Source of the DNA: Escherichia coli
GTDB lineage: Bacteria > Pseudomonadota > Gammaproteobacteria > Enterobacterales > Enterobacteriaceae
DNA: 64,000 bases
Strand: one strand, 5' to 3'
NCBI RefSeq assembly: GCF_003018255.1
Contig: NZ_CP027440.1
Notes under the pieces: generated by a model
What the model was told of the DNA's origin: nothing
Databases searched by the model: none
What the model saw: the letters and a program-made list of their open reading frames with translations, nothing else
Part shown: in pieces, positions 57,271-60,100 of the stretch
Numbering within the stretch: the stretch's first letter is position 1
Layout: every line of letters starts with the position of its first letter
Position numbers and translations under genes: made by a program

Positions 57271-58344
57271 CTATATAACACAATCTTCCATAAAAGAATC
57301 TAGAAATAAATCATTTATTCCTTTAGGTTTTCTTCGGTCGCATAGAGAGTATAATTCTTCAACTGAAGAGTAAGGGAAGAATTTAGCTTTTAATTCAATG
57401 AATTGGGGCATGTTTGCAAATTCTATCACCTTTGCTCGATATTCATCAGGAGCAACGATAGTCCAACGGATATCTTGTAATCTCGGTGCATGATCATAGA
57501 ATTGTTTCATGCGAGTCAGACCACTTTTTATACCAGTACTGTGTTCAATCTCCATTACTGCTGGCATCATGCGGCCTTCCCTAAACCAAATGCAGTCTAT
57601 AAGACGAGCATCTTTAATCGCATCATTATACGATTGGAGTACTTGCTCATCAGATAATGAACTTATTACACCGTCCATTTGCGCTATAGCTTTACCATTA
57701 TATTGTAAGCTACGATCATTGGCTGCTACCCAAGTATCTAAACCTAAACAATAACCTATTTTTACTAAGGCAATTTGTATCTGAGCATGACGTCTTTTTT
57801 CTTCAATAGTCATGCCTTTAGTCGGTTTAATTGTCTCAATATCAACGCTTTGGTGAACAACATCGAAGCTCATTTCAGAGACAACAATATTAGTCTGGTG
57901 CTCAATTAACAAACCATTAGTATGTGGCATATCTGGCAGAAAAATCAGATGCTTATGTCCTGGTTTTATAGACTTTTGTGCATTCATGATTTCCAGTCTG
58001 GCTGGCCTACACCAATAGAACTCTGGAGTATGTGCGAGCAAGCTCTCCAATACCGAGCGGGTGTTGTAACTGGCACCGAAAACCCTTTCAACGTTGACAG
58101 GTCTGTTTTCTTCGAGTGCATTTGCAAGTCGCCAAAGCATTTGAGTCGAAATACTCTCTGTTTTAGCTGTTGCTTGAGTTTGACCTTTCTTAGGATCAAA
58201 TCTCTTTATTTCGATAGGACCTTCGGGATGTTGGATACGTACAATCTCAATCTTCCCGCTATTCCTATCGTTTATATAGTTAAACAGCGTATTTTTGGGT
58301 AAGCTCGAAATCGCCTGAACCAGATTCGATGCTGTTATCCTCAT
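57271..58344 (-). CDS. Candidate type II restriction endonuclease (cognate of the adjacent m5C methyltransferase)
   Basis: 357-aa ORF directly downstream of and overlapping the MTase gene; assigned by position only. Confidence 0.5.
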   Translation of the reverse strand: MRITASNLVQAISSLPKNTLFNYINDRNSGKIEIVRIQHPEGPIEIKRFDPKKGQTQATAKTESISTQMLWRLANALEENRPVNVERVFGASYNTRSVLESLLAHTPEFYWCRPARLEIMNAQKSIKPGHKHLIFLPDMPHTNGLLIEHQTNIVVSEMSFDVVHQSVDIETIKPTKGMTIEEKRRHAQIQIALVKIGYCLGLDTWVAANDRSLQYNGKAIAQMDGVISSLSDEQVLQSYNDAIKDARLIDCIWFREGRMMPAVMEIEHSTGIKSGLTRMKQFYDHAPRLQDIRWTIVAPDEYRAKVIEFANMPQFIELKAKFFPYSSVEELYSLCDRRKPKGINDLFLDSFMEDCVI

Positions 58345-59419
58345 TACTGTATCCTAAATGTTGCAAAATTGATTGGGCAATACCGAGCGCGGCGATATAG
58401 GGAACTCCGTTTCCGACTGTTTTAAACATATTCGACAAAGTCATATCCCCTGGTAGCTCAAAATTTTTTGGCAAAGACTGGATTGCCAATGCTTCAGCGA
58501 CCGTAATACGACGAGGTTTGTATGGGTGAAGGTGAACTTCATTATTACCATATGCTGCTGTTGGAGAGTATCTCCAGCGATGAAGCCTTTTATATGATTT
58601 TTTACTATCGTCGCCTTCTTCTACTGACTGGAATCTTGCTAAACCGGCTCGGGCCGTAAATACATGTTTAGCGTTTGGATGATTGGTAACATCGTTTTTC
58701 TCGAACCAGTATTCTATAGTAAGTTCTTCTGGAATACCTTGCGGGCATTCCATACTTGAGTCTTCTTCGTATGTGTTTGTTGTTGGCCAAGGGAACTGGA
58801 AAGCTTCCTTATTGGGGTATATTTGGCCACTCCATTCGAAGTTTTTGGCTAAAGACTTATCAAGAAAACCAACTAAAATAATCCTTTCTCGATCTTGAGG
58901 CGCACCGTATTCAATTGAATTAATCAATCTTTCATGCAGGATATATCCTACTGAAGCTAGTTCATTCTTAATTTGTTCGAAAAATTCTCTATGTTTAAGA
59001 GTCCGGTATAAGCCTTTAACGTTTTCAAAAAGGAAGAAATCAGGCATCATTTCAATTATCAGGTCAATGTAACTTTGTGATAATTTGCCATTTTCACCAT
59101 CTTTGCCTTTGTTTTTGCCAGCAACAGAAAAGTCAGGGCATGGTGGTCCGCCAATGAAGCCCACTAGGCGGTTTTCACCTTTCAGTGTTTTCATGCTATG
59201 CTTAATCACTGAATGCTCAATAGTTTCAATGCTTTCTTGGGCATACCCAAAGCGTGGCGGCTGTTTGCCAAGTTTTTTTCTTGAGTGTTTATACGCGTCC
59301 ATGAAGGGAGGATGGAATTCATTGACGAAAACCACCTCATACCCGGCATTTTCGAAGCCTAGGTCAAGAAAACCTGATCCTGAAAAGAATGAAAATATAG
59401 CGGGTTTCATTGTGGACAT
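58280..59419 (-). CDS. DNA (cytosine-5)-methyltransferase
   Basis: Motif I FSFFSGSGF; motif IV GGPPCPDFS; ENV; QDRER; GNGV. Confidence 0.85.
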   Translation of the reverse strand: MSTMKPAIFSFFSGSGFLDLGFENAGYEVVFVNEFHPPFMDAYKHSRKKLGKQPPRFGYAQESIETIEHSVIKHSMKTLKGENRLVGFIGGPPCPDFSVAGKNKGKDGENGKLSQSYIDLIIEMMPDFFLFENVKGLYRTLKHREFFEQIKNELASVGYILHERLINSIEYGAPQDRERIILVGFLDKSLAKNFEWSGQIYPNKEAFQFPWPTTNTYEEDSSMECPQGIPEELTIEYWFEKNDVTNHPNAKHVFTARAGLARFQSVEEGDDSKKSYKRLHRWRYSPTAAYGNNEVHLHPYKPRRITVAEALAIQSLPKNFELPGDMTLSNMFKTVGNGVPYIAALGIAQSILQHLGYSNEDNSIESGSGDFELTQKYAV

Positions 59420-59644
59420 TTTATACCTATCAAGTTAGCTTAAATTTTTACTAAATATCTCGCTGTACGATCCTACTATTTTACATGATAACTTGTTAAT
59501 TATCAATTTACTTTTTAATATATTAGCAAATAAGACCTGGCACTACTTCAGATTAGATAGTATTCATTGCTATAAAGTTAGGTGTTAATATATTGATTAA
59601 TAGTATAAGCTGCTATTATAGATTTAGAAACCGAAGGAACTTAT

Positions 59645-60100
59645 ATGCCTGATATGAGGTTATTTAAATCAAAAAACACCAAACTTGAGTTAAGAATCAG
59701 GAAGCCGTTGTTTGCCAGAGGATTTCGTTATCGATTGCATAATAGTGGTTTGCCTGGTAGACCAGATATGTATTTCCCTAAATACAATGCAGTCATTTTT
59801 ATCCATGGCTGTTTTTGGCATGGGCATGATAACGGCTGCCCTATATCTCACACTCCTAAAAATAATGAATCGTACTGGCAAAATAAAATCAATAAAAATC
59901 AAGAAAGAGATGTCAAAAATCAATATGTTCTTGCATCTAAAAACATCCGCGTTCTGATTATATGGGAGTGTGCAATAAAACTTAAAAGTATTGATTTTGT
60001 CGATTTTATTGATTACATCGATGAATGGCTTAGAGGTGGGGCAAATTCAACACAGATGAGCGCAAAGGAACCAATGCCGACTTTTGAGTTTCCGAAATGA
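59645..60100 (+). CDS. vsr: Very-short-patch repair endonuclease
   Basis: RPDMYFPKYNAVIFIHGCFWHGH...VLIIWECA signature. Confidence 0.85.
   Translation: MPDMRLFKSKNTKLELRIRKPLFARGFRYRLHNSGLPGRPDMYFPKYNAVIFIHGCFWHGHDNGCPISHTPKNNESYWQNKINKNQERDVKNQYVLASKNIRVLIIWECAIKLKSIDFVDFIDYIDEWLRGGANSTQMSAKEPMPTFEFPK

What the first reader, a model, noticed from the sequence alone, without database searches (positions are those of the whole stretch)
57271..60100. Type II restriction-modification module (candidate endonuclease plus C5-cytosine methyltransferase) with a divergently oriented vsr
The methyltransferase shows motifs I, IV, VI, VIII and X. The downstream overlapping ORF is the likely cognate endonuclease but has no recognisable family. 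Vsr normally follows its methyltransferase in the same orientation, whereas here it is divergent. Together with the adjacent DUF262/ATPase operon this forms an AT-rich defence islet at the island's right end.
Basis: partly seen in the sequence, partly recalled or inferred. Interest (0 to 1): 0.4.

Follow-up and report, generated by a model that had tools for sequence, protein, structure and literature searches.

The report
NmeDI-type restriction-modification system with Vsr
This is an ordinary, apparently intact three-gene DNA defence module (methylase, restriction enzyme and a repair nickase) of the already characterised NmeDI family, sitting at the tip of a mobile island in E. coli next to a second known anti-phage system.

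Summary
The Type II R-M reading holds. Two sub-claims do not.

(2) The divergent vsr is not an anomaly that needs explaining. The prototype NmeDI system also contains a Vsr. In 79 related loci the M-R pair is invariant, whereas vsr is present in only 21, in four different positions and orientations.

All three genes are under purifying selection (dN/dS 0.11-0.18). The likely target, by homology, is RCCGGY, cut outside the site.

The neighbouring DUF262/ATPase operon is the Menshen (NsnABC) system. The module lies about 460 bp from the attR of a roughly 60-kb leuX island.

Verdict: a new member of a known kind, of low interest. Minor oddities are a 10-residue N-terminal deletion in Vsr and an R recognition domain with no solved structural relative.

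The parts
58280..59419 (-). C5-cytosine DNA methyltransferase (M), 379 aa, NmeDI-type
   Evidence: PF00145 E = 1.4e-52. PADLOC MTase_II PDLC03355 E = 1.7e-161. Motifs I, IV, VI, VIII, IX and X align to M.HaeIII. Its TRD is as conserved as the catalytic core across syntenic homologues.
57271..58344 (-). Type II restriction endonuclease (R), 357 aa, NmeDI family: N-terminal recognition domain (~1-150), variable linker (~151-178) and C-terminal PD-(D/E)XK domain (~179-357) with invariant D250, E265, E267 and H268
58280..58344 (-). 65-nt M/R overlap; the R start codon has its own AGGA Shine-Dalgarno sequence inside the end of M
   Evidence: Sequence read. M-R junctions overlap or abut in nearly all related loci. 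nmeDIM and nmeDIR overlap by 9 codons (PMC2095814).
59645..60100 (+). Very-short-patch repair endonuclease (Vsr), 151 aa; active-site and Zn-site residues intact; about 10 conserved N-terminal residues missing
   Evidence: PF03852 and TIGR00632 above their cut-offs. 1cw0 at E = 1e-26, aligning only from E. coli residue 12. Alignment with 21 linked Vsrs plus K-12 Vsr. dN/dS 0.11.
59420..59644 (.). AT-rich divergent intergenic region with back-to-back promoter-like sites for M-R (- strand, 59506-59478) and vsr (+ strand, 59567-59594); too short to hold a controller (C) protein gene
   Evidence: Consensus scan only, so not evidence of function. Sequence. No ORF of 60 aa or more here.
57220..57248 (.). 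12-bp-stem hairpin between the convergent stops of nsnC (57209) and R (57271); a candidate bidirectional terminator
   Evidence: Terminator-like site found.
53211..57209 (+). Neighbouring Menshen anti-phage operon: nsnA (53211-55157), nsnB (55157-56305), nsnC (56325-57209). A separate module, not part of the R-M system
   Evidence: PADLOC NsnA 1.7e-113, NsnB 1.3e-104, NsnC 1.7e-83. PMC12065111. Only 65-72% nt identity to the C. koseri copy, while the flanks are 92-93% identical.
60560..60589 (+). Degenerate direct repeat of the leuX 3' end (attR), marking the right end of the ~60-kb island
   Evidence: 15-nt exact match to tRNA-Leu positions 654-668. Sequence. tRNA-Leu(CAA) at 590-674.

Best explanation
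This is a complete NmeDI-family Type II restriction-modification system with an accessory Vsr. It is carried as cargo at the right end of a leuX-integrated conjugative island.

Shown here:
- M is a C5-cytosine methyltransferase with all of its catalytic motifs.
- R is a full-length member of the NmeDI endonuclease family. It has a conserved N-terminal domain, a variable linker and a C-terminal PD-(D/E)XK-type nuclease domain.
- M sits directly upstream of R and overlaps it, as in virtually every relative.
- Vsr keeps its catalytic and zinc-binding residues.
- All three genes are under purifying selection.

Inferred by homology to the characterised N. meningitidis system:
- M methylates a cytosine in RCCGGY/RCCGGB. 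This is probably the outer C, judging from the gonococcal Vsr substrate GTCGGT/ACCGGC.
- R binds unmethylated RCCGGY through its N-terminal domain. It probably acts as a tetramer bridging two sites. Its tethered nuclease domain cuts outside the site on both sides ((12/7)RCCGGY(7/12)) and excises a 25-bp fragment. Incoming phage or plasmid DNA is destroyed in this way.
- The M-before-R order, with translational overlap, lets methylation get ahead of restriction in a new host.
- Vsr is transcribed divergently from its own promoter. It nicks 5' of the T in T:G mismatches produced when the system's own 5-methylcytosines deaminate, which offsets the mutational cost of carrying the methylase. E. coli's own Vsr is tuned to CCWGG and would not be expected to cover this sequence context.
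For: Family identity of R:
- PADLOC REase_II PDLC03534 at E = 3.2e-120, covering residues 2-357 against profile positions 5-351.
- 1,798 homologues, all with precomputed PF27126, whose name is NmeDI_C.
- Independent source names 'R.NmeDIP' on P0114 (55% identity) and on P0410, a member of the 75%-identity cluster.

Nuclease fold:
- AF2 model with pLDDT 83.7.
- Invariant D250, E265, E267 and H268 lie on strands 251-255 and 259-266.

Synteny: M is directly upstream on the same strand in essentially all 79 loci, and the junction ranges from -140 to +5 nt.

Specificity likely shared: identity in the M TRD is 0.57 against 0.60 for the core, and in the R N-domain 0.53 against 0.56 for the C-domain.

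Prototype properties come from PMC2095814. The prototype contains a Vsr (PMC7973814).

Vsr.

Selection: dN/dS is 0.11 for R, 0.18 for M and 0.11 for V against the C. koseri copy, which has the identical arrangement.
Against: - I could not obtain a Neisseria R.NmeDI or M.NmeDI sequence. The link to the prototype therefore rests on the Pfam name, the PADLOC profile and transferred annotations, not on a direct alignment.
- The catalytic residues are inferred from conservation and strand position, not from a superposition.
- Target sequence, cleavage geometry, oligomeric state and in vivo restriction are all untested for this protein.
- Vsr lacks the conserved N-terminal ~10 residues. In E. coli Vsr the N-terminus is needed for functional interaction with MutL (Monastiriakos et al. 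2004, cited in PMC6116569). Its repair efficiency may therefore be reduced.
Confidence: 0.82

Rival explanations
1. Same family but different biochemistry. The E. coli/Citrobacter enzyme pair may recognise a site other than RCCGGY, or cut at different distances, because it is only about 50-60% identical to relatives in other phyla.
For: I made no direct comparison with the prototype. The linker that would set cleavage distance is poorly conserved (0.25 identity) and is modelled with low confidence (residues 157-174). Even in the prototype, M (RCCGGB) and R (RCCGGY) differ slightly in specificity (PMC2095814).
Against: The TRD of M and the N-domain of R are as conserved as the catalytic parts across 70 or more loci from many phyla. 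C5-MTase TRDs of different specificity normally show little similarity (general knowledge). REBASE predicted RCCGGY/RCCGGB for distant homologues (PMC2095814).
Confidence: 0.2
2. An orphan methyltransferase plus Vsr, with an inactive or decaying endonuclease gene. The module would then have an epigenetic or repair role and give no restriction phenotype.
For: RefSeq annotates R as 'hypothetical protein'. R-M systems on islands often decay, and the adjacent fosA-like gene is a pseudogene remnant. Vsr-linked MTases are sometimes solitary (PMC12907096).
Against: R is full length, with every family-invariant residue present. It has its own Shine-Dalgarno sequence. dN/dS is 0.11 over dS 0.30 against the C. 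koseri copy. The M-R pairing is conserved in essentially all loci.
Confidence: 0.07
3. The methylase, or the whole M-R pair, works as part of the neighbouring Menshen system. For example, it could mark self DNA for the ParB-DUF262 sensor NsnA, rather than acting as an independent R-M system.
For: The Menshen paper reports that 27.9% of Menshen operons neighbour R-M systems or methylases and raises this possibility (PMC12065111). Menshen genes also lie about 4 kb from the M-R pair in Kosakonia (L003). Weak DUF262 neighbours occur in six other loci.
Against: About 70 of the 79 M-R loci have no Menshen or DUF262 gene within 6 kb. Between E. coli and C. koseri the Menshen operon is replaced by a divergent allele (NsnA 58%, NsnB 65%, NsnC 39% aa identity), while R, M and V stay 95-98% identical, so the modules evolve independently. 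M has its own cognate nuclease overlapping it.
Confidence: 0.05
4. M is the methylase of a Druantia-type system (DruM) rather than of a Type II R-M system.
For: PADLOC DruM2|DruM PDLC00030 at E = 3.1e-142.
Against: The MTase_II profile scores higher (1.7e-161). No large DruE-like helicase or other Dru gene lies among the ORFs of 53-64 kb. A cognate REase overlaps M.
Confidence: 0.01

Closest known systems
NmeDI restriction-modification system of Neisseria meningitidis (M.NmeDI, R.NmeDI, V.NmeDI; Kwiatek & Piekarowicz 2007, PMC2095814)
   Same: The same three gene types. M is upstream of R on the same strand, with overlapping reading frames. R is of similar size (357 vs 351 aa) and belongs to the Pfam family named after it (PF27126 NmeDI_C). 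A Vsr is linked to the system (PMC7973814). The expected mechanism is also the same: an RCCGGY target, cleavage outside the site on both sides, two sites required, tetramer.
   Different: Host and context differ: an enterobacterial leuX island rather than the meningococcal pheS-pheT intergenic site. The M/R overlap is 65 nt rather than 9 codons. vsr is divergent and upstream of M, and has a shortened N-terminus. Identity to the prototype was not measured, and all of the biochemistry is untested here.
E. coli dcm-vsr (EcoKDcm / V.EcoKDcm)
   Same: A C5-MTase genetically linked to a Vsr that repairs T:G mismatches from m5C deamination. The Vsr active-site and Zn-site residues are conserved.
   Different: dcm is a solitary methylase with no nuclease. 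vsr lies downstream of dcm, overlaps it and is co-transcribed. Its sequence context is CCWGG. K-12 Vsr has the full N-terminus.
Type IIS cleavage modules (FokI, N.BspD6I/R.BspD6I) and the CCGG-family tetramers NgoMIV/Cfr10I/Bse634I/SgrAI
   Different: There is no detectable sequence similarity (PMC2095814 also reports none to Cfr10I or BsrFI). The site is palindromic, and cutting occurs on both sides rather than within the site (Cfr10I) or on one side (FokI).
Menshen (NsnABC) anti-phage system (neighbouring operon only)
   Same: The window's 53211-57209 operon matches the NsnA, NsnB and NsnC profiles at E = 1e-83 to 1e-113. Co-location with methylase-nuclease pairs is a described pattern (PMC12065111).
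   Different: It is a separate module on the opposite strand and is exchanged independently of the R-M-V genes.

Membership tests
NmeDI-family Type II restriction endonuclease (Pfam PF27126 NmeDI_C; PADLOC REase_II PDLC03534) | Significant full-length match to the family's sequence profiles | tested here: met
   PDLC03534 at E = 3.2e-120, residues 2-357 against profile positions 5-351 of 351. PF27126 is precomputed on the 96%-identical P0001 and on all listed homologues. My local Pfam copy lacks this model (no hit).
NmeDI-family Type II restriction endonuclease (Pfam PF27126 NmeDI_C; PADLOC REase_II PDLC03534) | Direct sequence similarity to the characterised R.NmeDI of N. meningitidis (AJ238948) | tested here: inconclusive
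   No Neisseria sequence was retrievable. The only evidence is transferred 'R.NmeDIP' names on P0114 (55% identity) and P0410 (in the 75%-identity cluster).
NmeDI-family Type II restriction endonuclease (Pfam PF27126 NmeDI_C; PADLOC REase_II PDLC03534) | Cognate C5-MTase immediately upstream, same orientation, overlapping or abutting | tested here: met
   65-nt overlap in the window. The same geometry is seen in essentially all 79 related loci. The prototype overlaps by 9 codons.
NmeDI-family Type II restriction endonuclease (Pfam PF27126 NmeDI_C; PADLOC REase_II PDLC03534) | Nuclease (PD-(D/E)XK-type) catalytic domain | tested here: met
   [not shown]
NmeDI-family Type II restriction endonuclease (Pfam PF27126 NmeDI_C; PADLOC REase_II PDLC03534) | Recognition of RCCGGY with cleavage at (12/7) on both sides; two sites required; tetramer | not testable with these tools
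   These are biochemical properties reported in PMC2095814. Here there is only indirect support from the even conservation of the recognition domains.
C5-cytosine DNA methyltransferase (PF00145 / TIGR00675) | Profile score above the curated cut-off, and conserved motifs I, IV (catalytic PC), VI (ENV), VIII (QxRxR) and X (GNxVP) | tested here: met
   PF00145 at 179.6 bits against a cut-off of 22. TIGR00675 at 162 bits against 100.65. Motifs seen in the alignment to M.HaeIII.
Vsr very-short-patch repair endonuclease (PF03852 / TIGR00632) | Profile score above the cut-off; catalytic Asp (PGRPD), the HGCFWH..H..C and WEC zinc/active-site residues | tested here: met
   TIGR00632 at 118.3 bits against a cut-off of 97.85, and PF03852 at 89.1 against 27. 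Residues are aligned with K-12 Vsr and 1cw0.
Vsr very-short-patch repair endonuclease (PF03852 / TIGR00632) | Conserved N-terminal segment (..RSxNMxxI..), which in E. coli mediates functional interaction with MutL | tested here: not met
   The window Vsr starts MPD-MRLFKSKNT, where its relatives have MPDTVSKKRRSEIMSHIKSKNT. All 22 comparison Vsrs have this segment. The profiles match only from position 13-14.
Menshen NsnABC (neighbouring operon) | Three co-directional genes matching the NsnA (ParB-DUF262), NsnB (ATPase) and NsnC profiles | tested here: met
   PADLOC NsnA 1.7e-113, NsnB 1.3e-104, NsnC 1.7e-83. Pfam GmrSD_N and AAA_15/DUF3696.
Druantia (DruM-containing) | Presence of DruE helicase and the other Dru genes next to the methylase | tested here: not met
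   Only the DruM profile hits, and it scores below MTase_II. The neighbouring ORFs are R, Vsr and NsnABC.
Type IIS / Type IIB restriction enzymes (considered only for how the system works) | IIS: asymmetric site cut on one side. IIB: bipartite site with R and M activities fused in one protein | tested here: not met
   R has no MTase domain, and a separate M gene is present. The prototype's site is a continuous palindrome (PMC2095814). The resemblance is limited to the tethered FokI/BspD6I-like nuclease domain.

The most novel reading that the evidence does not exclude
Probability: 0.45. Interest if true: 0.3.

Novelty: new member of a known kind. Interest (0 to 1): 0.15.

Why it matters
The practical value is mainly better annotation. 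RefSeq's "hypothetical protein" WP_024196156.1 can be named an NmeDI-family Type II restriction endonuclease. The neighbouring operon can be named Menshen.

The island tip then reads as a two-system defence cargo (R-M-Vsr plus Menshen). It is shared with Citrobacter koseri and is present in only 3 of 5,426 complete E. coli genomes.

For restriction-enzyme specialists, the family is biochemically unusual because it makes double-sided cuts around a palindrome, and it has no solved structure. An E. coli-native orthologue with confident domain models could be a convenient subject for structural work. Nothing here challenges current understanding.

Tried and rejected
1. Direct comparison with Neisseria R.NmeDI. 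I spent the third homologue search on a betaproteobacterial (Gallionella) orthologue whose gene is the same 1056 bp as nmeDIR, and I looked inside multi-member clusters. No Neisseria sequence surfaced. Claus et al. 2000 is not held in the library.

2. A sequence search of R against the PDB gave no hit even at E = 10.

There is no sequence-level link.

5. RCCGGY site avoidance as a footprint of the system. The R-M-V region has one site against 0.9 expected. In the island backbone GCCGGC is absent (0 against 34.8 expected), but GGCGCC is similarly depleted and ACCGGC/GCCGGT is not (34 against 41.8). I did not measure a genome-wide baseline, so there is no specific signal.

6. A controller (C) protein. 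The 225-bp intergenic region has no room for one and holds no ORF.

7. The Druantia reading of the DruM profile hit, rejected for lack of partner genes.

8. An obligatory Menshen partnership, rejected on synteny and on independent module exchange.
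Full report
**Observation**

The ORF scan reproduces the finding exactly.
- A 357-aa ORF lies at 57271-58344 (-).
- A 379-aa ORF lies at 58280-59419 (-) and overlaps the first by 65 nt.
- A 151-aa ORF lies at 59645-60100 (+), divergent from the 379-aa ORF across 225 bp.

The region is AT-rich. GC is 0.32-0.41 between 53 and 60 kb, against 0.56-0.63 in the DNA to its left.

The 379-aa protein is a C5-cytosine methyltransferase: PF00145 E = 1.4e-52 and TIGR00675 at 162 bits against a cut-off of 100.65. Motifs I (FSGSG), IV (GPPCPDFS), VI (ENV), VIII (QDRER), IX and X (GNGVP) are visible in its alignment to M.HaeIII.

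The 151-aa protein is a Vsr: PF03852 and TIGR00632 both above their cut-offs, and E. coli Vsr 1cw0 at E = 1e-26.

**What the 357-aa ORF is**

RefSeq also calls it 'hypothetical protein' in the identical E. coli locus. The ORF is nevertheless a clear member of a catalogued family.
- It matches PADLOC's REBASE-derived REase_II profile PDLC03534 from end to end (E = 3.2e-120).
- It has 1,798 homologues, all carrying the precomputed Pfam family PF27126, whose name is NmeDI_C.
- Two independent sources name relatives 'type II restriction enzyme NmeDIP': P0114 at 55% identity, and P0410 in the 75%-identity enterobacterial cluster.

The family is strongly conserved, with 72 invariant columns among 29 diverse members, including D250, E265, E267 and H268.

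An AlphaFold model (pLDDT 83.7) shows two domains joined by a low-confidence linker (residues 157-174).

C-terminal domain:
- D250 precedes strand 251-255, and E265-x-E267 ends strand 259-266. These are the positions of the PD...(D/E)xK motif, here in a BamHI-like D...ExE form. This residue assignment is my inference, not a superposition.
- Foldseek was not significant.
- A profile comparison with the FokI cleavage domain was negative.

N-terminal domain:
- Modelled alone, it has high confidence (pLDDT 93.5, pTM 0.88).

**The characterised prototype**

R.NmeDI of N. meningitidis has the following properties (PMC2095814).
- It is 351 aa long.
- Its gene overlaps the upstream nmeDIM by nine codons.
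- It recognises RCCGGY.
- It cuts both strands on both sides, (12/7)RCCGGY(7/12), releasing a 25-bp fragment.
- It needs two sites and is active as a tetramer.
- It restricts phage in vivo.

M.NmeDI recognises RCCGGB. The authors suggested that R.NmeDI might be a Type IIS-like enzyme acting on a palindrome. The two-domain model found here, with a FokI/BspD6I-like nuclease domain, fits that idea.

The meningococcal NmeDI system also contains a Vsr (PMC7973814). I could not retrieve a Neisseria sequence for direct alignment. Percent identity to the prototype is therefore unknown, and that link is indirect.

**Synteny and the vsr orientation**

I fetched 80 loci encoding relatives from many phyla. 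I located M and Vsr homologues in them by tblastn.

M is directly upstream of R on the same strand in essentially every locus that has upstream DNA. The junction overlaps or abuts, ranging from -140 to +5 nt.

Vsr is facultative and mobile. The tally over 79 non-redundant loci is:

| vsr arrangement | loci |
|---|---|
| none within about 6 kb | 58 |
| downstream of R, same strand | 9 |
| upstream of M, same strand | 7 |
| downstream of R, convergent | 4 |
| upstream of M, divergent (L046, Paenibacillus aestuarii) | 1 |

Of the 62 loci with at least 700 bp beyond both ends, 41 have no vsr.

The nearest enterobacterial M-R relatives (70-75% identity; L003-L005) have no vsr. The Vsrs most similar to the window's (L066 53%, L013 50%, L068 49%) sit downstream of R on the same strand.

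The divergent arrangement is therefore rare within the family. It is one of four observed solutions for a trans-acting accessory gene, not a mechanistic anomaly. It is not a rule for this family. The literature notes only that vsr genes tend to stay linked to C5-MTase genes (PMC12907096).

**Is the system intact, and is the specificity conserved?**

A Citrobacter koseri genome carries the same cassette in the same arrangement: glyoxalase, then Vsr on one strand, M and R on the other, then NsnC, NsnB and NsnA, then ICE genes.
- Against that copy, dN/dS is 0.11 for R, 0.18 for M and 0.11 for Vsr, with dS of 0.06-0.30. All three genes are under purifying selection.
- Across the distant syntenic loci, M's target-recognition region is as conserved as its catalytic core (median identity 0.57 vs 0.60).
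- R's N-terminal domain is as conserved as its nuclease domain (0.53 vs 0.56).
- Only the linker is variable (0.25).

This even conservation argues that the family shares one specificity. It does not prove it.

**Expression signals (weak evidence)**

R has an AGGA Shine-Dalgarno sequence seven nucleotides before its ATG, inside the end of M. The intergenic region has promoter-like sites facing both ways: 59506-59478 on the - strand, and 59567-59594 on the + strand. A 12-bp-stem hairpin lies at 57220-57248, between the convergent ends of nsnC and R. The counts of such sites do not exceed the shuffled expectation. There is no room for a controller protein gene.

**Context**

- The window is E. 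coli. The locus is identical in strains JNE23-011 and JNE112863 and 99.8% identical in Res13-Lact-ER01-35, which makes 3 of 5,426 complete genomes.
- tRNA-Leu(CAA) (leuX) lies at 590-674. A degenerate copy of its 3' end lies at 60560-60589. These bound an island of about 60 kb with ICE genes (PFL_4669 family, ParB, STY4528 family).
- The R-M-Vsr module lies about 460 bp from attR. Only a fosA7-like pseudogene remnant separates them.
- The upstream operon, 53211-57209, is the Menshen system: NsnA 1.7e-113, NsnB 1.3e-104, NsnC 1.7e-83 (PMC12065111).
- Menshen operons are often found beside methylase-nuclease pairs (PMC12065111).
- The two modules look independent here. About 70 of the 79 M-R loci have no Menshen or DUF262 neighbour. 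Between E. coli and C. koseri the Menshen operon is a divergent allele (65-72% nt identity; NsnC 39% aa identity), while both flanks are 92-93% identical.

**Mechanism and confidence**

I am confident (about 0.9) that this is an intact NmeDI-family Type II R-M system with an accessory Vsr. I am less confident (about 0.6-0.7) that it targets RCCGGY/B and cuts outside the site as the prototype does.

The proposed mechanism has three parts.
- M methylates C5 within the site. The gonococcal Vsr substrate for the NmeDI-like methylase, GTCGGT/ACCGGC (PMC6116569), implies that the outer C is the methylated base.
- R binds unmethylated sites through its N-terminal domain. It cuts with its tethered nuclease domain, probably as a tetramer bridging two sites.
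- Vsr nicks T:G mismatches that arise from m5C deamination.

**An oddity in Vsr**

This Vsr lacks about 10 conserved N-terminal residues that all 22 comparison Vsrs possess. The window protein starts MPD-MRLFKSKNT, where its relatives have MPDTVSKKRRSEIMSHIKSKNT. The C. koseri copy is also 151 aa. In E. coli the Vsr N-terminus is required for functional interaction with MutL (Monastiriakos et al. 2004, listed in PMC6116569). This Vsr may therefore work less efficiently, or independently of MutL.

**Verdict**

The module is a new member of a known kind, and its interest is low (0.15).

The most novel reading that my evidence does not exclude is structural. The family's recognition domain has no solved relative, and the predicted architecture supports the 'Type IIS on a palindrome' idea.

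Noticed in passing
window 59645-59700 (Vsr N-terminus); also L082 6244-6699: The Vsr lacks about 10 conserved N-terminal residues (the ..RSxNM.. segment). These are present in all 21 Vsrs linked to related R-M loci and in K-12 Vsr. It looks like a 30-nt in-frame deletion (MPD|MRLFKSKNT against MPDTVSKKRRSEIMSHIKSKNT). The gene is still under purifying selection (dN/dS 0.11). In E. coli this segment is needed for functional interaction with MutL.
   Followed up: partly
window 53211-57209 vs L082 9112-13115: Between E. coli and C. koseri the Menshen operon is a strongly divergent allele: 65-72% nt identity, with NsnA 58%, NsnB 65% and NsnC 39% aa identity. Both flanks, the ICE backbone and the R-M-Vsr module, are 92-93% identical. 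This implies cassette replacement or very fast diversification of Menshen in a fixed slot, consistent with the polymorphism described in PMC12065111.
   Followed up: partly
window 60283-60574 and 60560-60589: A fosA7/VOC-family gene remnant with an internal deletion of about 258 bp lies between vsr and the island's attR-like leuX repeat. The C. koseri copy has an intact 140-aa glyoxalase-family gene at the same place. About 42 other E. coli genomes match a 92-bp piece annotated as fosA7.5.
   Followed up: partly
window 675-53000: GCCGGC is completely absent from the island backbone (0 observed against 34.8 expected under a Markov-4 model), making it the most depleted 6-bp palindrome. GGCGCC is 3 against 35. 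The non-palindromic RCCGGY members ACCGGC/GCCGGT are not depleted (34 against 41.8). This does not look like a footprint of this R-M system, but I did not measure a genome-wide baseline.
   Followed up: partly
L002 (JAEZCC010000032.1, 'Bacillota bacterium' MAG): A 7.8-kb contig binned into a Bacillota MAG is 100% identical to the window's R gene and 99.7-100% identical to NsnA, NsnB and NsnC. It is almost certainly a mis-binned enterobacterial contig.
   Followed up: no
[not shown]
   Followed up: yes
window 61068-61217 and 61354-62004: Just outside the island's right end lie a fragment annotated as a phosphorothioated-DNA-binding restriction endonuclease (pseudogene) and an intact 216-aa HNH endonuclease. 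The HNH protein has weak Type IV (methyl-directed) REase profile hits. This suggests a further decayed defence locus between attR and a truncated nanS.
   Followed up: no
L016, L018, L047 (~7190-8100, +), L065 4640-5269, L048, L058, L003 11173-13068: DUF262/ParB-like (NsnA-like, 27-30% identity) genes lie immediately next to NmeDI-type M-R pairs in six unrelated loci. A Menshen NsnB/NsnC pair lies about 4 kb from the M-R pair in Kosakonia. This is a recurrent but minority co-location.
   Followed up: partly
L001 9272-10345 (NZ_AP045067.1, WP_024196156.1): RefSeq annotates the R gene as 'hypothetical protein' in E. coli. The 96%-identical Citrobacter protein is annotated 'restriction endonuclease'. 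The annotation can be upgraded.
   Followed up: yes
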